Assembly: GCA_963767925.1 (NCBI GenBank)
Contig: CAVYGB010000008.1
Coordinates: forward strand, 2,272,001 to 2,336,000
Direction: 5' to 3'
Length of the DNA: 64,000 nt
DNA from: an uncultured delta proteobacterium
GTDB taxonomy: Bacteria; Myxococcota_A; Polyangia; Fen-1088
The position numbers and the translations under genes were made by a program. Under the pieces are notes generated by a model. That model searched no databases. It was not told the DNA's origin and saw only the letters and a list, made by a program, of their open reading frames with translations. Of the stretch, positions 49,959-59,971 are shown piece after piece. How positions within the stretch are numbered: the first letter of the stretch is position 1; each line of letters begins with the position of its first letter.

Positions 49959-51205
49959 TCAGCCCTTCCGGAGCAGCAGGATGTGCTCGCGGCGAGGCTG
50001 CGAGCCGAAGATGACCCGCACGGCCGGGTCGCGCGGGGGCCGAACCTGCGAGGCGCGCGCCACCAGCGACAGGCCCGCCTCGGCGCCGGCCTCGGTGACC
50101 GCCCGGGCGGCGTCTTCGGGCTTTTTTCCCACCACCCCGTCGCCGACAACGAGCATCGCCAGGCCCGAAGGGCGCAGCACCCGGGCCATCTCCTCCAGCC
50201 AGGCCCGGCGGCCCTCCTGCCACAGCTCACGGACGGTGCCCGGACCACCCCGCCGCTCGCCGAGCTGGCGCTGGCGCAGGGTCTCGATCGGCAGACCCAG
50301 CCAGCGAAACCGGACGGCGTGTTGCTCGGCGTAGTCGTAGACCCCCGCGTAGGGTGGCGAAGAGAGCACCAGGTCGACCGAGCGCGCGCGGGCGTCCGGG
50401 TAGCTGCGGGCGTCGCCCAGATGGACATCAGCCCGGGGGGTCCCCTCCGGAGTCACGAGGGAAAGCTCGGCCAGGCCCGCCGCCAGCTCCTCGGCCCGCT
50501 CCGCGAAAAACCGGGAGGGAAAGCCCCGCGCGATCCGCTTGTCGAGGCCGTCCTGGGCGCCTCGGGTCCGGAGCGCATCAACTTGACGAGGAGGGAAGAG
50601 AGGCAGAGCCGGAGCGCCTGGCCCTGGGGCTCGTCGGCCGACGTCTCCATGACCGCCGCCCGCAGGGTGAACAGCTCGAGCGCGACGTGGGGGTGGTAGC
50701 GGGCGAAATCGAGGGGGGCCCAGCGTGGCAGCTGGGGGCGGATGCGCGCCCGAGCCTGGGCCCCCACCGCGCTGGCGATGGCCTTGGCCCGCTCGACCAG
50801 ATCGCGCCGCCAGCCCTCCGGCATGCGGCGAGTCCGCACGGTCGCGATCAGCACCGCCAGCGGGCTGGCGTCGACGCCGATAGCCTTGCGACCGGCCACC
50901 AGCGCCTCGACGAGGACCGTGCCGCTGCCACAGAACGGGTCGAGCACGGTCGCGCCCGGCGGAGTGAAGCGCCCGATGGCCCCCCGGGCGATCGAGGGGT
51001 GGAGCTTGCCCGCGTAGCTGTGAAAGCCGTGGGTCAACGCCCGTTCCAGCTTGAAGTCCACCGAGAAGATTTCGGCCAGGCTCTCGGCCTCCTCGGTCGA
51101 GCCCTCGGTCTCGACCGGGCCCCGGATCACGGAGAAGGCCCGGCGCTGGTGGGCGGCGGGCAGGGGGAACGGCCCGGTTCCGCGCGGGCGGGTCAACCGG
51201 TCCAT
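49959..51205 (-). CDS. SAM-dependent amino-methyltransferase (N4-C/N6-A DNA MTase-like or Trm11-like), frameshift near 50550
   Basis: [13 protein letters not shown]; motif [11 protein letters not shown]; motif [19 protein letters not shown]. Confidence 0.8.
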
Positions 51206-52410
51206 CGCGACGACTCGAAGACGCCCTCGAGGAGCTTGTCGACCTCGGCCAGCATCTGGCGGGCCGTCTCGCTCCCCAGCGTCGAGAGCGCCGCCCGGAT
51301 GTCCTGCAGGTTGCGGAGCTGGGAGAAGAGCTGCACGTCCGAGAGGGTCTCGCCCCCCAGCAGCAAGCGATCGGATCACCCCCAGCTCGGCCAGGACGGC
51401 GTCGAGATCGACGCTCGTCGCGCCCAGCCGCCGCTGCTCGGGGTTCTCGCGGTGGTGCCGTTCGAGCACCGGACCCACCAGATCCTTGAGCAGAGGCGCC
51501 TGATCGACCTGTTCCAGATGTGTTTGAGCACGAAGAAGTCCGCGTCGTTTACCACGCTCCGACCGTCGAGGAGCGCGTTGGCCGAAAAGAGCTTCAGCAG
51601 CTTCACCGCCCGCCGGTCGCTCACGCTCACCCCCTCGGACCGGATCTGGAAGAGGAGGCCCTTGTAGCGGGCCAGGAACTCCTCGGGGAAACGGAGCAAG
51701 GTCTCCATCCGCCCGTGGATGCGCCGGATCTCGCTCAGCGAGACCAGCGGCGCGATGCGCTCGTCGGCCCCGCTGGCGTGGGCGATCTCCGCCTTGATGC
51801 CCCGCTCGAGCAGCGCCAGGAAGTGGAAGCTGTCGAGGTTCTCGGACATGGCCCGGATGAGGAAGCGGTCGAACAGCGCCGCCAGGGCCTCGTCGTTGGG
51901 GATCTCGTTGGTGGCGCCGAACAGCGACCACAGCGGCACCTTGATGGTGGTGCTGCCGGTGAAGAAGCGGCGCTCGTTGAGGATGCCGAGCAGCGAGTTC
52001 AAGATCGCCGAGTTGGACTTGAAGATCTCGTCCAGGAACACGATCTCCGCCTCGGGCAACATCGCTTCGGTCCGGCGGACGTAGATCCCTTCCCGGAACG
52101 CCTTGATGTCGACCGGGCCGAACAGCTCGCTCGGCTCGGAGAACCGGGTCAGCAGGTATTCGAAGTAGCGGGCGTCGATGAGACGGGCCAGGTGTCGCAC
52201 CAGGGCCGACTTGGCGGTACCCGGCGGGCCGACGATCAGCATGTGCTCGCCGGCGATCAGCGCCACCAGCAGCAGCCGGATGAGCTCCTCCTTGTCGAGG
52301 AAGCGCTGACCGAGTGTGCGTCCTACCTCGCGCAGCTTGGCTCCCACCTGCATCGAGTCGCCATCGGCCGTGAGTGGCACGACCCGAGCGGATGGATCTT
52401 TGGGCGTCAT
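51193..52410 (-). CDS. MoxR-family (RavA-like) AAA+ ATPase, frameshifts near 3' end
   Basis: Walker A GPPGTAKS; FEYLLTRFSEPSELFGP; Walker B IVFLDEIFK; NSLL.ILNER; GATNE; ALFDRF; SDRR. Repaired C-terminus ends ..[13 protein letters not shown] at TGA 51193. Confidence 0.9.
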
Positions 52411-58769: not shown

Positions 58770-59971
58770 GCGCGCCGACGAAGGAGGATCCCCACCTCAC
58801 GGCGCTCGAGCTGCGTTTCGCTCAGGATCCGGAGGACCCCGACACGCGGCTCGAGCTGTTCGAGCAGCTGCTCAGCCGGGGCGAGCCGGCGGCGGCCCGC
58901 GAGCTGCTGCTGCCGCTCTCCGCGAGCCAGCACCCGCTGTCGGCCCAGGCGATCGCCCGCCTGGCCCGGCTCGACGAGCACGAGGGGCGCATCGCCGATG
59001 CGGTCCTTCGCTGGGAGCGGCTGCTGGCCGACGACATCGACCACGACCTGGCCTGGGCCCAGCTCGCCCGTCTCGGTCGGGCCAGCGTCACCGCGGCGGC
59101 CTATTCACCGGGCGTCTTGCCGGTGGCGGCGCCCACCCTGGAGTCCCCGGCCGGGGTGAGCTTCTCCCGGTTCGAGATCGTCCGGGAGATCGGCCGGGGC
59201 AGCTCGGCGACCGTCTACCTGGCGCGCGATCGGACCCTGGACATCGAGGTGGCTCTCAAGGTGCTCCACCCGCGGGCGGGCGACGTCGCCGACGCCGAGC
59301 TGGACCACCACTTCTTTCACGAGGCGCGGACCGTGGCCGGGCTCCGGCACCCCGGGGTGGTGGCGATCTACGATGTCGACGAGGGGGCCCGGACGCTCGT
59401 CATGGAGCACATCCCCGGCGGAACGTTGCGCGAGCGGCTGCGCGCGCCTTCCGGGGGTCCGACGGTCCGGCGGGGGCTGCCGGTCCCGGAGGTCCTCGCC
59501 CTCGGACGGCGGATCCTCTCCGCCCTCGCCTACCTGCACGAGCGGGGGGTCGTTCATGGCGATCTGACTCCCCGGAACGTCCTGCTGCGGGGACCGGCCA
59601 ACCCGGTCCTCGTCGACTTCGGGATCGCCCGTCGGGGCCCCGCCGGGGAGGAAGCGAGCGCGCCGCCGGCCGCAGGCACCCCCCTTTACCTCGCACCCGA
59701 GCGGTTCCGGGGCGCCCCCTCCTCGACCAGCACCGATCTGTTCGCGGTGGGGGCCCTGCTCTGGGAGGCGCTGGCGGGACACCCGCTCCGCACCCACGGC
59801 GACCTGGTGGGCCAGCGCACAGACAGCCGGCCGCTGCCCCGGGAGGTCGAGGAGGCGCTCGGCTCGCCGGAGCACCCGCTGGCGCGCATGGTCGCGGCGC
59901 TGACTGCCGCGAACCCCCGCCTCCGGCCCGACAGCGCCGGGGCGGCCCTGCGCGAGCTTGCCGGGCGCTGA
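58766..59971 (+). CDS. Cytoplasmic Hanks-type Ser/Thr protein kinase with N-terminal TPR-like region
   Basis: IGRGSSATVY, VALK, HGDLTPRNV, DFG, GTPLYLAPE, DLFAVG; GTG start overlaps FHA-gene stop. Confidence 0.9.
   Translation: MSAPTKEDPHLTALELRFAQDPEDPDTRLELFEQLLSRGEPAAARELLLPLSASQHPLSAQAIARLARLDEHEGRIADAVLRWERLLADDIDHDLAWAQLARLGRASVTAAAYSPGVLPVAAPTLESPAGVSFSRFEIVREIGRGSSATVYLARDRTLDIEVALKVLHPRAGDVADAELDHHFFHEARTVAGLRHPGVVAIYDVDEGARTLVMEHIPGGTLRERLRAPSGGPTVRRGLPVPEVLALGRRILSALAYLHERGVVHGDLTPRNVLLRGPANPVLVDFGIARRGPAGEEASAPPAAGTPLYLAPERFRGAPSSTSTDLFAVGALLWEALAGHPLRTHGDLVGQRTDSRPLPREVEEALGSPEHPLARMVAALTAANPRLRPDSAGAALRELAGR

What the first reader, a model, noticed from the sequence alone, without database searches (positions are those of the whole stretch)
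49959..59971. Candidate MoxR-AAA / methyltransferase / FHA-kinase conflict or stress module
Seen: a divergent 8-gene block. Leftward: two intact unknown cytoplasmic proteins (56364, 54850; 5 nt apart), a vWA lipoprotein, a RavA-like MoxR AAA+ ATPase and an amino-methyltransferase. Rightward: a beta-sandwich lipoprotein, a TPR-FHA protein and a TPR-Ser/Thr kinase, tightly packed. Known: MoxR ATPases work with vWA partners, and MoxR-vWA 'ternary' systems have been proposed as conflict systems in multicellular bacteria. Inference: the two unknowns resemble the FtsH-ternary X6/X7 domains (from memory). No FtsH-like ATPase or cytoplasmic vWA is in this window, and an MTase plus kinase/FHA pair are present instead. 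This could be a variant, phosphorylation-gated system.
Basis: partly seen in the sequence, partly recalled or inferred. Interest (0 to 1): 0.75.

Follow-up and report, generated by a model that had tools for sequence, protein, structure and literature searches.

The report
Polyangia MoxR–vWA module with FHA/kinase pair

Summary
The eight genes are there, but three are broken or lack a start in this assembly (MoxR, methyltransferase, beta-sandwich lipoprotein). purA, parA and parB are frameshifted too, so these are probably assembly indels.

Only part of the block is a conserved unit. Across 42 related loci the recurring core is X502 – X408 – bpMoxR – ivWA-like vWA protein – HEAT-repeat protein (~600 aa), often divergent from an FHA protein plus TPR-Ser/Thr kinase. 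In this genome the vWA and HEAT genes lie 654 kb away.

- The vWA lipoprotein is CglB-like and occurs in 3 of 20 relatives' loci.
- The beta-sandwich lipoprotein sits in a 1.19-kb insertion absent from the same-genus genome.
- The methyltransferase is a family-specific operon insertion (13 of 13 loci in the family, 0 of 29 outside).

In 401 genomes of the phylum, X502 (50) and the vWA protein (47) share the same 44 class genomes. The FHA protein's N-terminal domain was seen in 42 of those 47 and in no listed match from an X502-less genome. Five family genomes without the MoxR lack X502 and the vWA protein too.

- X502 is fvmX7/bpX2-like.
- X408 is not fvmX6-like and has no Pfam or PDB match.

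Verdict: a new, FtsH-less and propeller-less variant of the MoxR-vWA 'ternary' systems, vertically inherited. Its function is unknown and a defence role is unproven.

The parts
54856..56364 (-). X502: 502-aa cytoplasmic protein. Core component with three alpha/beta (ferredoxin-like) domains. Its C-terminal half is fvmX7/bpX2-like, and it ends in a conserved PLWG tail.
   Evidence: It is intact and shows coding signal. Of 17 orthologues, 3 are above the Pfam fvmX7 cut-off and 12 match bpX2 weakly. The AlphaFold2 model has pLDDT 79.6. The best PDB matches are weak: Z 6.0 to the YpbH/MecA C-terminal domain and no Foldseek hit at E<=0.001. It was found in 50 of 401 phylum genomes, nearly always as one copy.
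53648..54850 (-). X408: 400-aa all-helical protein with a small beta-sheet. Core component with no known family.
   Evidence: The model has pLDDT 87.9 and pTM 0.85. No PDB match was found: Foldseek gave none at E<=0.001 and the best VIA Z was 4.8. No Pfam, NCBIfam or PADLOC match was found. The family has 621 clusters at 50% identity with E<=0.001. hhalign against fvmX6 gave probability 0.2%. It lies beside X502 in 18 of 22 loci that were selected by X502.
52508..53599 (-). vWA lipoprotein, CglB-like. A lineage-specific insertion between X408 and MoxR, and not the MoxR partner.
   Evidence: It has a lipobox and the MIDAS motif DRSSS and matches Pfam VWA at E 1.1e-5. NCBIfam gliding_CglB scores 69.6 bits against a cut-off of 200. 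It is present only in L019, L021 and L022 among the 20 relatives' loci and in 0 of 22 further loci.
51193..52410 (-). bpMoxR-type MoxR AAA+ ATPase with P-loop GPPGTAKS. The frame is broken between about 51509 and 51366 in this assembly.
   Evidence: It matches Pfam PF20030 at E 3.5e-77. The closest solved structure to the G001 orthologue is E. coli RavA at E 8e-45. Orthologues match residues 1-301 only, and the C-terminal 60 aa resume in the same frame. Two 1-nt indels separate it from G001.
49959..51205 (-). Amino-methyltransferase with motif I (DPFCGSGT) near the N-terminus and SPPY in the C-terminal half. Its start overlaps the MoxR stop by 13 nt. It has a frameshift near 50552. It is a family-specific addition to the operon.
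   Evidence: The frames were read, and the indel. The intact G001 orthologue matches Pfam N6_N4_Mtase at E 5.8e-13 and PADLOC MTase_II at E 1.2e-30. PDB matches cover only the motif I region. It is present in 13 of 13 loci of the window's family and in 0 of 29 loci outside it.
56377..57566 (.). 1.19-kb insertion between the divergent X502 and FHA genes. It carries the 'beta-sandwich lipoprotein' (frame +1, about 56404-57558).
   Evidence: It is absent from the same-genus genome G001, where 17 nt stand in its place. tblastn found no match in any of the 20 relatives' loci. There is a weak DUF1349 match at E 5.8e-4. No in-frame start codon precedes the signal peptide. One 34%-identical paralogue lies elsewhere in the genome.
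57570..58769 (+). FHA protein: a helical N-terminal domain of about 230 aa, an FHA domain at residues 239-293, and a C-terminal domain.
   Evidence: It matches Pfam FHA at E 4.7e-9. The GR and SxxH motifs are kept in 10 of 10 orthologues. It is divergent from X502 in 9 of 20 relatives' loci, or 10 counting one cut at a contig end, and in 4 of 22 further loci. Matches that include its N-terminal domain occur in 42 of the 47 genomes with X502 and ivWA, and in no listed match from an X502-less genome.
58766..59971 (+). TPR-Ser/Thr kinase. It is predicted to be active and its start overlaps the FHA gene's stop.
   Evidence: It matches Pfam Pkinase at E 4.8e-35. The VALK Lys, catalytic Asp and Asn, DFG and APE are kept in 10 of 10 orthologues. 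The catalytic-loop Lys is Thr in the window, L021 and L022. The kinase follows the FHA gene in 10 of 12 loci where that pair is unlinked from X502.
59975..61807 (-). 610-aa secreted protein with a Pro-rich linker and a possible outer-membrane beta-barrel, convergent with the kinase. It is a conserved neighbour within the family only and is not counted as part of the module.
   Evidence: tblastn found matches in 5 loci: L014, L020, L021, L022 and L026. It has no Pfam match and a weak OMP_myx_plus match at E 0.0096.

Best explanation
The region holds five of the seven genes of a Polyangia-wide module, which is vertically inherited and usually single-copy. The seven proteins are:
- X502, which is fvmX7/bpX2-like;
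- X408, a helical protein of an unnamed family;
- a bpMoxR AAA+ ATPase;
- an ivWA-like protein, with a helical N-terminal domain and a vWA domain that keeps the MIDAS motif;
- a HEAT-repeat protein of about 600 aa;
- an FHA protein;
- a TPR-Ser/Thr kinase.

The ancestral layout is the operon X502-X408-MoxR-ivWA-HEAT, divergent from FHA-kinase. In this genome the ivWA and HEAT genes have moved 654 kb away. A methyltransferase was added after MoxR in the common ancestor of this taxonomic family. Two lipoprotein genes were inserted later.

Proposed mechanism (inferred, not shown): the MoxR hexamer and its vWA adaptor use ATP to assemble or remodel a complex of X502, X408 and the HEAT scaffold. 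The TPR-kinase phosphorylates a component, and the FHA protein reads that mark to gate the step. No nuclease, protease or pore-forming effector is encoded, so the output is a change in a protein complex rather than direct killing of an invader.

The frameshifts in MoxR and the methyltransferase are most likely assembly errors.
For: Shown:
- The X502-X408-MoxR order holds in 17 of 20 loci selected by MoxR and in 12 of 22 loci selected by X502; a thirteenth, L085, also holds MoxR but with a HEAT-type gene between X502 and X408.
- An ivWA-like gene lies on the far side of MoxR from X502 in 21 of 42 loci, not always immediately adjacent, and a HEAT-repeat gene lies next to it in 18 of those.
- The ivWA-like family keeps the MIDAS motif DASAS. 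Of 17 members, 9 match Pfam ivWA weakly (best 27.2 bits, cut-off 35) and 2 match ivWA-helical_N.
- Over the same 401 phylum genomes, X502 occurs in 50 and ivWA-like in 47. The same 44 class genomes appear in both lists, plus G100, G307 and G412.
- In 5 of 5 genomes checked in another family, X502-X408, MoxR and ivWA lie at three separate places, and all three are kept.
- In 5 of 5 genomes of the window's family where ivWA is not beside MoxR, it is kept elsewhere.
- The 5 family genomes without a bpMoxR orthologue have no X502 (0 of 5) and no ivWA-like (0 of 5).
- The quick X502 tree follows taxonomy. Its 20 family labels need 19 changes, which is the minimum possible.
- Matches that include the FHA protein's N-terminal domain occur in 43 genomes. 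Of these, 42 are among the 47 with X502 and ivWA.
- The kinase follows the FHA gene in 10 of 12 loci where that pair is unlinked from X502.
- The kinase catalytic residues and the FHA pThr-binding residues are conserved.
- purA, parA and parB are also frameshifted.

Established knowledge: MoxR ATPases work with vWA partners as chaperone-like remodellers. Examples are RavA-ViaA and CoxD-CoxE, as reviewed in Kaur et al. 2020, PMC7159879, of which I read sections 21 and 22 and search passages.
Against:
- No client or output of the module is identified.
- The FHA/kinase pair is next to X502 in only 13 or 14 of 42 loci, and 5 of the 47 genomes showed no full-length FHA match. That table lists only the best 150 matches, with 67 not shown.
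- Related genomes are not independent, so the co-occurrence counts overstate the number of independent events.
- The module has been lost in several lineages, so it is dispensable. That fits an accessory or defence role as well as a physiological one.
- X502 and X408 evolve fast. Within the family they are 37-49% identical to the window's proteins, against 70-76% for MoxR. This is also typical of conflict genes.
- The assembly-error reading of the frameshifts could not be checked against reads.
Confidence: 0.6

Rival explanations
1. It is an anti-phage or other conflict system of the MoxR-vWA 'ternary' kind. The kinase/FHA pair would act as sensor or threshold switch. In this family the methyltransferase would mark self DNA. 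X502 and X408 would be non-enzymatic effectors or decoys.
For: - Parts of the system are homologous to parts of the FtsH and beta-propeller ternary systems: bpMoxR, ivWA and fvmX7/bpX2. Kaur et al. 2020 predict these systems to be conflict systems.
- The accessory proteins evolve fast.
- The whole module has been lost repeatedly.
- The methyltransferase scores as a type II DNA MTase in PADLOC at E 1.2e-30, and the kinase domain resembles defence kinases mad6 and PD-T4-6.
Against: - The module is usually single-copy, and its tree follows taxonomy with no inter-family transfer detected.
- The genes stay in the genome even when scattered to three or four loci. Mobile defence operons seldom behave this way.
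- The neighbours are housekeeping genes: purA, a tRNA-synt_His (histidyl-tRNA synthetase family) gene, parAB and a DsbA-like gene. No integrase or other defence gene was seen among the window ORFs scanned between about 29.7 and 64 kb.
- No effector domain was found.
- X502, X408 and the FHA protein have no PADLOC match.
- By contrast fvmX6, the marker of canonical FtsH ternary systems, is patchy (15 of 401) and lies at other loci.
- The methyltransferase is absent outside one family.
Confidence: 0.25
2. The block is a chance neighbourhood of separate units: a MoxR operon, an unrelated FHA-kinase signalling pair, an orphan methyltransferase and two lipoproteins. There is no joint function.
For: - The two lipoprotein genes are indeed unrelated insertions.
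- The methyltransferase is family-specific.
- FHA-kinase is unlinked from X502 in most loci outside the family: it is linked in only 4 of the 22 loci selected by X502.
Against: - The FHA protein's N-terminal domain was seen only in genomes that carry X502.
- The divergent FHA|X502 arrangement, with intergenic distances of 33-152 nt in five relatives' loci (L014, L019, L020, L021, L022), recurs in several families and in two genomes outside the class, G100 and G412.
- The methyltransferase start overlaps the MoxR stop in G001 and in the window. In two genomes the ivWA gene follows it directly.
Confidence: 0.1
3. In this organism the locus is decaying. The frameshifts in MoxR and the methyltransferase and the missing lipoprotein start would be real, following the loss of linkage to ivWA and HEAT.
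For: - Three or four frame breaks fall within 7 kb.
- The vWA partner has moved away.
- The kinase catalytic-loop Lys is Thr in this sub-clade.
Against: - purA, parA and parB, which are housekeeping genes, carry the same kind of 1-nt indels.
- The assembly is only 83.8% complete despite having 13 contigs.
- Codon signal stays strong across the breaks.
- X502, X408, the FHA gene, the kinase gene and the distant ivWA and HEAT genes are intact.
- The G001 orthologues of MoxR and the methyltransferase are intact.
Confidence: 0.1

Closest known systems
FtsH ternary systems, simple type (Kaur, Burroughs, Iyer & Aravind 2020, eLife 9:e52696; Pfam ivWA, ivWA-helical_N, fvmX1-7)
   Same: - Both have a MoxR with the GxxxTAKS P-loop.
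- Both have a divergent vWA protein with a large helical N-terminal domain, and extra alpha-helical proteins.
- X502 orthologues reach the Pfam cut-off for fvmX7 in 3 of 17 cases.
- Both occur in myxobacteria (called deltaproteobacteria in the paper).
   Different: - No FtsH-type double AAA+ protein was seen in the locus or in the related loci scanned.
- X408 is unrelated to fvmX6 (hhalign probability 0.2%).
- There is no NEFF1 or radical-SAM effector.
- There is a conserved HEAT-repeat protein and an FHA/Ser-Thr kinase pair.
- This module is vertically inherited and usually single-copy, whereas fvmX6 systems are patchy (15 of 401 genomes).
MoxR-vWA-beta-propeller ternary systems (same paper, subsystem 4; Pfam bpMoxR, bpX0-6)
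   Same: - The ATPase is a strong bpMoxR match at 258.6 bits.
- X502's C-terminal half matches bpX2 weakly in 12 of 17 orthologues.
- There is no conventional effector.
- Two genomes outside the class (L086, L087) hold a bpMoxR-like gene close to a gene whose product resembles X502 over about 250 residues. In L086 a 766-aa WD40 protein follows that gene.
   Different: - The paper states that the vWA component 'strictly' carries a beta-propeller. The ivWA-like partner here has none.
- There is no third component with a membrane segment, TPR and propeller.
RavA-ViaA (E. coli MoxR-vWA chaperone pair)
   Same: - It is the closest solved structure to the G001 orthologue of the ATPase (RavA, E 8e-45 over residues 27-331).
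- It shares the logic of a MoxR ATPase plus a vWA partner with a MIDAS motif.
   Different: - NCBIfam RavA scores 182 bits against a cut-off of 681, so this is not an equivalog.
- The partner architecture differs.
- There are five further conserved proteins.
CglB (Myxococcus gliding-motility vWA lipoprotein), for the window's vWA lipoprotein only
   Same: Both are lipoproteins with a vWA domain. The NCBIfam CglB model matches at E 2.4e-19.
   Different: The score is 69.6 bits against a cut-off of 200, so it is a distant paralogue. It is inserted in the operon in only one sub-clade.
MADS and BREX (defence systems that combine a methyltransferase, a Ser/Thr kinase and an ATPase)
   Same: This family's version also combines a methyltransferase, a Ser/Thr kinase and an ATPase. 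PADLOC mad6, mad2 and mad8 give matches at E 7.7e-54, 1.9e-16 and 0.0046.
   Different: - The matches cover generic catalytic domains only.
- NCBIfam MAD6 scores 111 bits against a cut-off of 460, and PglW 66 bits against 990.
- No other MADS or BREX component was found.
- The methyltransferase is absent from the module outside one family.

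Membership tests
MoxR-vWA-beta-propeller ternary system (Kaur et al. 2020) | MoxR of the bpMoxR type with the GxxxTAKS P-loop | tested here: met
   PF20030 matches at E 3.5e-77, 258.6 bits against a cut-off of 27. The P-loop reads GPPGTAKS.
MoxR-vWA-beta-propeller ternary system (Kaur et al. 2020) | vWA component that strictly carries a C-terminal beta-propeller of about four blades | tested here: not met
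   The ivWA-like partner is about 485 aa. None of 17 members matched a WD40 or propeller family at E<=0.1. The window's vWA lipoprotein is 363 aa with a VWA match only.
MoxR-vWA-beta-propeller ternary system (Kaur et al. 2020) | Third component with a variable N-terminus, a membrane segment, TPR and a beta-propeller | tested here: not met
   Pfam scans of the window ORFs between 46 and 64 kb found no propeller protein. A WD40 protein was seen only in the out-of-class locus L086.
MoxR-vWA-beta-propeller ternary system (Kaur et al. 2020) | Accessory bpX domains | tested here: inconclusive
   bpX2 matches 12 of 17 X502 orthologues, all below the 23.6-bit cut-off, with best E 3.2e-4.
FtsH ternary system (Kaur et al. 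2020) | Third component with two FtsH-type AAA+ domains | tested here: not met
   Pfam scans found no FtsH-type AAA+ protein among the window ORFs or among the neighbour ORFs scanned in eight related loci. The whole genome was not searched for one.
FtsH ternary system (Kaur et al. 2020) | Divergent vWA (ivWA) fused to an N-terminal helical domain | tested here: inconclusive
   ivWA matches 9 of 17 members, best 27.2 bits against a cut-off of 35. ivWA-helical_N matches 2 of 17. The MIDAS motif DASAS is present. In this genome the gene lies 654 kb from the MoxR gene.
FtsH ternary system (Kaur et al. 2020) | fvmX7 domain protein | tested here: inconclusive
   Three of 17 X502 orthologues are above the 24-bit cut-off, at 41.5, 39.5 and 25.9 bits. 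The window's own protein does not match.
FtsH ternary system (Kaur et al. 2020) | fvmX6 domain protein | tested here: not met
   PF20004 found no match in this genome at E<=1. hhalign of the X408 family against 10 fvmX6 proteins gave probability 0.2%.
RavA (NCBIfam NF010054 equivalog) | Whole-protein score above the curated cut-off | tested here: not met
   182.3 bits against a cut-off of 681, tested on the intact G001 orthologue.
MADS / BREX defence systems | Kinase and methyltransferase reach the family cut-offs and the other system proteins are present | tested here: not met
   NCBIfam MAD6 scores 111 bits against 460 and PglW 66 bits against 990. X502, X408 and the FHA protein have no PADLOC match.
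CglB (NCBIfam NF033757), for the vWA lipoprotein | Score above the curated cut-off | tested here: not met
   69.6 bits against a cut-off of 200.
Active Hanks-type Ser/Thr kinase | Catalytic Lys (VAxK), catalytic Asp and Asn, DFG and APE | tested here: met
   All are kept in 10 of 10 orthologues. The catalytic-loop Lys is Thr in the window, L021 and L022.
FHA domain (phosphothreonine reader) | Conserved Gly-Arg, Ser-x-x-His and the following Ser/Asn loop | tested here: met
   GR and SRxH are kept in 10 of 10 orthologues. In the 'SxNG' loop the Asn is kept in only 2 of 10. Pfam FHA matches at E 4.7e-9.

The most novel reading that the evidence does not exclude
A 'ternary-type' MoxR-vWA machine, of a kind so far predicted only as a sporadically distributed conflict system, has been fixed as a chromosomal seven-protein apparatus gated by phosphorylation. 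It is inherited vertically across the class Polyangia, stays together functionally even when its genes are scattered, and is lost only as a whole. It would then be either a domesticated immune or cell-fate switch of multicellular myxobacteria, or a new chaperone pathway. X408 would be a new fold family. The conserved acidic PLWG tail of X502 would be the peptide that the vWA MIDAS site grips.
Probability: 0.3. Interest if true: 0.75.

Novelty: new variant of a known kind. Interest (0 to 1): 0.55.

Why it matters
The MoxR-vWA 'ternary' systems rest on computational prediction in the one paper I found on them. My searches of the held library for the Pfam domain names returned only unrelated papers. 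Searches for MoxR and vWA with Sorangium, or with FHA, kinase and Myxococcus, returned Kaur et al. 2020 and nothing on this module.

This variant is a tractable entry point.

It also shows a module with the hallmarks of a conflict system behaving like a vertically inherited cellular apparatus. That bears on how such systems relate to multicellular life styles.

Practically, the work corrects the gene list. The true vWA partner lies outside the window, and two 'members' are insertions. It also flags that this assembly carries frame-breaking indels.

Tried and rejected
- **X408 as fvmX6-like:** rejected. PF20004 found nothing in this genome, and hhalign of the X408 family against 10 fvmX6 proteins gave probability 0.2%.
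- **vWA lipoprotein as MoxR co-chaperone:** rejected. It is a lipoprotein, it is CglB-like, and it occurs in 3 of 20 relatives' loci.
- **MADS or BREX membership:** rejected. The scores are far below the cut-offs and the other components are missing.
- **Fold searches:**
  - X408 gave no Foldseek match at E<=0.001 and a best VIA Z of 4.8.
  - X502 gave no Foldseek match at E<=0.001. Its best VIA matches were Z 6.0 to YpbH and Z 5.4 to the MecA C-terminal domain. That is below the level that is common by chance, so it is only a lead.
- **ESM Atlas** gave no usable hit for either unknown.
- **PDB sequence search** with the ivWA-like profile found nothing at E<=0.1.
- **The search for related loci** with the X502 alignment failed because no stretch was conserved enough. 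I used the genome search instead.
- **Earlier findings** of this scan held nothing for this place or these words.
- **Supplements** of Kaur et al. held here contain only a species and multicellularity table, not the system tables. I cannot say whether that paper's source data already list this architecture.
- **MoxR tree:** a second tree was not finished within the time limit.

Full report
**1. What is in the window**

The window is about 71% G+C, so long ORFs occur in all frames. I called genes with position-specific G+C and a codon-score scan trained on long ORFs of the window.

Leftward genes:
- X502, 54856-56364.
- X408, 53648-54850. Its ATG lies 5 nt after the X502 stop, and this start agrees with the same-genus orthologue.
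- A vWA lipoprotein, 52508-53599.
- A MoxR ATPase, called as 51376-52410.
- A methyltransferase, read in two frames between 49959 and 51205.

Rightward genes:
- A frame +1 gene, about 56404-57558. It has a lipoprotein signal (…LAALAGC) but no ATG, GTG or TTG before it.
- An FHA protein, 57570-58769.
- A kinase, 58766-59971, whose GTG start overlaps the FHA gene's stop.

Pfam gives these matches:
- bpMoxR on the ATPase, E 3.5e-77.
- VWA on the lipoprotein, E 1.1e-5.
- FHA and Pkinase on the two rightward genes.
- N6_N4_Mtase pieces on the methyltransferase.
- bpX2 on X502, E 0.0025, which is sub-threshold.
- Nothing on X408.

**2. Broken frames**

All orthologues of the ATPase match only its first 301 residues, and they are about 400-410 aa long. 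Its last 60 codons are present in the same frame further downstream.

Aligned with the same-genus genome G001, the window differs in three places:
- It lacks one base near 51509.
- It has one extra base near 51366.
- It lacks one base near 50552, inside the methyltransferase.

The G001 orthologues of both genes are single open frames.

The same kind of 1-nt indel breaks parA and parB just downstream, where G001 has intact genes. The purA N-terminus, with its P-loop, is likewise in a different frame from the rest of the gene.

The assembly has 13 contigs but only 83.8% completeness. I therefore read the breaks as assembly errors, with about 0.8 confidence. Reads could not be consulted.

**3. 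What is conserved**

I took 20 loci around the MoxR orthologues of relatives, and then 24 loci around genomes with an X502 match in a 401-genome sample of the phylum. Two of the 24 (L086, L087) hold only weak, partial X502-like matches, and I treat them separately in section 6. The other 22 are the X502-selected loci counted below. I mapped all components with tblastn and with HMMs built from the first set.

| Feature | 20 loci selected by MoxR | 22 loci selected by X502 |
|---|---|---|
| X502 present | 17 | 22 (by selection) |
| X408 beside X502 | 17 (X408 present in 18) | 18 |
| bpMoxR orthologue in the locus | 20 (by selection) | 13 (12 in the X502-X408-MoxR order) |
| ivWA-like gene in the locus | 11 | 10 |
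| HEAT-repeat gene next to the ivWA-like gene | 10 | 8 |
| FHA + kinase divergent from X502 | 9 (10 with one cut at a contig end) | 4 |
| Methyltransferase | 13 of 13 in the window's family; 0 of 7 outside | 0 |
| vWA lipoprotein | 3 (L019, L021, L022) | 0 |
| Beta-sandwich lipoprotein | 0 | not searched |

Two components that lie outside the window emerged from this survey.
- A protein of about 485 aa lies on the far side of MoxR from X502 in 21 of 42 loci, often immediately after MoxR or after the methyltransferase. It keeps the MIDAS motif DASAS. Of 17 members, 9 match Pfam ivWA weakly and 2 match ivWA-helical_N.
- A HEAT-repeat protein of about 600 aa lies next to that gene in 18 of those 21 loci. 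In L085 a more distant HEAT-type gene lies instead between X502 and X408.

In two genomes of the window's family the ivWA-like gene follows the methyltransferase directly.

The beta-sandwich lipoprotein lies in a 1190-nt insertion (56377-57566) that is absent from G001, where X502 and the FHA gene start 33 nt apart.

**4. The missing vWA partner**

This genome has one ivWA-like gene. It is intact, 485 aa long, and has DASAS at residue 308. A 603-aa HEAT-repeat gene follows it. The pair lies on the same contig, 654 kb from the MoxR gene, downstream of a gene with the two Pfam tetrahydrofolate dehydrogenase/cyclohydrolase domains.

The gene has moved rather than been lost.

**5. Co-occurrence, scattering and co-loss**

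Over one and the same sample of 401 genomes of the phylum:
- X502 was found in 50 and the ivWA-like protein in 47.
- The 44 genomes of the class are identical in the two lists, and three further genomes are shared.
- Each genome has a single match, apart from one genome with two copies of both.

Scattering without loss:
- In another family, 5 of 5 genomes checked keep X502-X408, MoxR and the ivWA-like gene at three different places. In three of the five a HEAT-type gene was seen beside the ivWA-like gene.
- In 5 of 5 genomes of the window's family where the ivWA-like gene is not beside MoxR, it is kept elsewhere.

Co-loss:
- Five genomes of the window's family lack a bpMoxR orthologue.
- They also lack X502 (0 of 5) and the ivWA-like protein (0 of 5).

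Inheritance: a quick maximum-likelihood tree of 40 X502 sequences follows taxonomy. Its 20 family labels need 19 changes, which is the minimum. The 11 rows of the window's family form one group with support 99, and the four out-of-class rows are set apart. Only the quick search finished.

The FHA protein was searched over the same 401 genomes.
- Matches that include its N-terminal domain occur in 43 genomes.
- Of these, 42 are among the 47 that have both X502 and the ivWA-like protein. The other one has X502 only.
- All listed matches from other genomes cover the FHA domain alone.
- The table lists only the best 150 matches, and 67 are not shown.

In 10 of 12 loci where this FHA gene is far from X502, the TPR-kinase follows it.

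These counts come from related genomes, so they overstate the number of independent events. The pattern of joint presence, scattering without loss, and joint loss is still what a functional module predicts.

**6. Relation to known systems**

I read Kaur et al. 2020 (PMC7159879): sections 21 and 22, plus search passages. The paper defines four MoxR-vWA 'ternary' systems.

- The beta-propeller type requires a vWA-propeller fusion and a TPR-propeller third protein. Neither is present here.
- The FtsH type requires a double FtsH-type AAA+ protein. I saw none in the loci.
- The P-loop variant GxxxTAKS, which those two types share, is present here as GPPGTAKS.
- The ivWA-like architecture of a helical N-terminal domain plus vWA equals that of the 'simple' FtsH type.
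- X502 orthologues exceed the Pfam cut-off for fvmX7 in 3 of 17 cases.

X408 is unrelated to fvmX6. Canonical fvmX6 genes occur patchily, in 15 of 401 genomes, and at other loci, sometimes in genomes that also have this module.

Two out-of-class genomes (L086, L087) hold a bpMoxR-like gene close to a gene whose product resembles X502 over about 250 residues. In L086 a 766-aa WD40 protein follows that gene, which looks like a canonical beta-propeller system.

In the passages my term searches returned, the paper has no occurrence of 'methyltransferase' or 'methylase', and it mentions FHA only as a sporadic effector-position domain of the vWA components of the VMAP ternary systems. The supplements held here lack its system tables.

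**7. Structures**

- X408 folds with high confidence (pLDDT 87.9) into a helical protein with a small three-stranded sheet. No solved structure resembles it.
- X502 (pLDDT 79.6) has three alpha/beta domains of ferredoxin-like topology and a disordered Pro-rich tail. The tail ends in a conserved motif, …E-[IV]-x-N-x-x-L-G-x-x-P-L-W-G.
- The best match of X502's N-terminal domain is the C-terminal domain of the ClpC adaptors YpbH and MecA, at Z 6.0 and 5.4 (rmsd 3.3 and 2.9 Å over 91 and 87 residues). This is within the range common by chance, so it is only a lead.

**8. The other genes**

- The kinase keeps all catalytic motifs, and the FHA domain keeps its pThr-binding Arg and Ser.
- The methyltransferase has motif I at the N-terminus and SPPY in the C-terminal half. 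It scores as a type II DNA MTase in PADLOC. However, it matches solved DNA N6/N4 MTases and tRNA m2G MTases only around motif I, so its substrate is open.
- The vWA lipoprotein is a distant CglB-like paralogue.
- The sub-clade that holds the window, G001, L021 and L022 shares three derived traits:
  - the lipoprotein insertion;
  - loss of ivWA/HEAT linkage;
  - the Lys-to-Thr change in the kinase catalytic loop.

**9. Reading**

Shown:
- The composition of the module.
- Its vertical inheritance, its co-occurrence and its co-loss.
- Which window genes belong to it.

Inferred:
- MoxR and the ivWA-like protein act together as an ATP-driven remodeller on X502, X408 and HEAT.
- The kinase and the FHA protein gate this step.

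Open: the biological role. Vertical, single-copy inheritance in a housekeeping neighbourhood, with retention after scattering, argues against a mobile defence island. Repeated whole-module loss, fast-evolving accessory proteins and kinship with predicted conflict systems keep a conflict or cell-fate role alive.

I put about 0.6 on the module and mechanism as stated, and within that I leave the role undecided. I put about 0.25 on a genuine defence system.

**10. Verdict**

This is a real, conserved and uncharacterised system. It is a new variant of the MoxR-vWA ternary kind, without FtsH and without a propeller, with HEAT and FHA/kinase components.

Noticed in passing
window 48257-50014 (+): parA (AAA_31/CbiA) and parB (ParB HTH) lie convergent with the methyltransferase. 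Each is split over two or three frames by 1-nt indels relative to intact genes in the same-genus genome G001.
   Followed up: yes
window 38004-39330 (-): purA (adenylosuccinate synthetase) is frameshifted. The N-terminal ~95 residues, with the P-loop, are in a different frame from the rest. This is further evidence of indel errors in this assembly.
   Followed up: partly
window 42812-45962 (+): In an ABC-F type ATPase ORF (42812-44764), only the second ABC domain is recognised. A second long ORF (44196-45962) overlaps it and has no Pfam match. This may be another frame problem.
   Followed up: no
window 56377-57566; G000:C8:50164-50577: The inserted lipoprotein gene has a Pro/Asp/Ala-rich linker and a weak DUF1349-like C-terminal domain. 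Its only other relative in the genome is a 34%-identical stretch 2.2 Mb away. No flanking repeat was looked for.
   Followed up: partly
L086 (G065:C103) 5827-11974; L087 (G126:C100): Two out-of-class genomes hold a bpMoxR-like gene close to a gene whose product resembles X502 over about 250 residues. In L086 that product is a 612-aa protein, and a 766-aa WD40 protein follows it.
   Followed up: partly
L065 (G202:C4) 14121-18032: In one genome of another family, a 1303-aa Ser/Thr kinase fused to an AAA_16 (STAND-like) NTPase sits divergent from X502, in the place of the FHA/TPR-kinase pair.
   Followed up: no
L085 (G100:C220) 3768-14383: An out-of-class genome has the order X502 - HEAT/TPR protein - X408 - MoxR - ivWA-like, divergent from FHA + kinase. 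All seven components are therefore in one locus, in a different order.
   Followed up: partly
L101-L114 (14 loci): fvmX6 genes, the marker of canonical FtsH ternary systems, occur in 15 of 401 phylum genomes. They lie at loci separate from this module, and some of these genomes have both.
   Followed up: partly
window 36015-37781 (-): A 588-aa protein with an N-terminal zinc ribbon and a GYF_2 domain.
   Followed up: no
window 46099-47832 (-): A 577-aa protein with two DsbA/thioredoxin-like domains. It is conserved near the module in several genomes of the family: L019, L021 and L022, with a partial match in L027.
   Followed up: no
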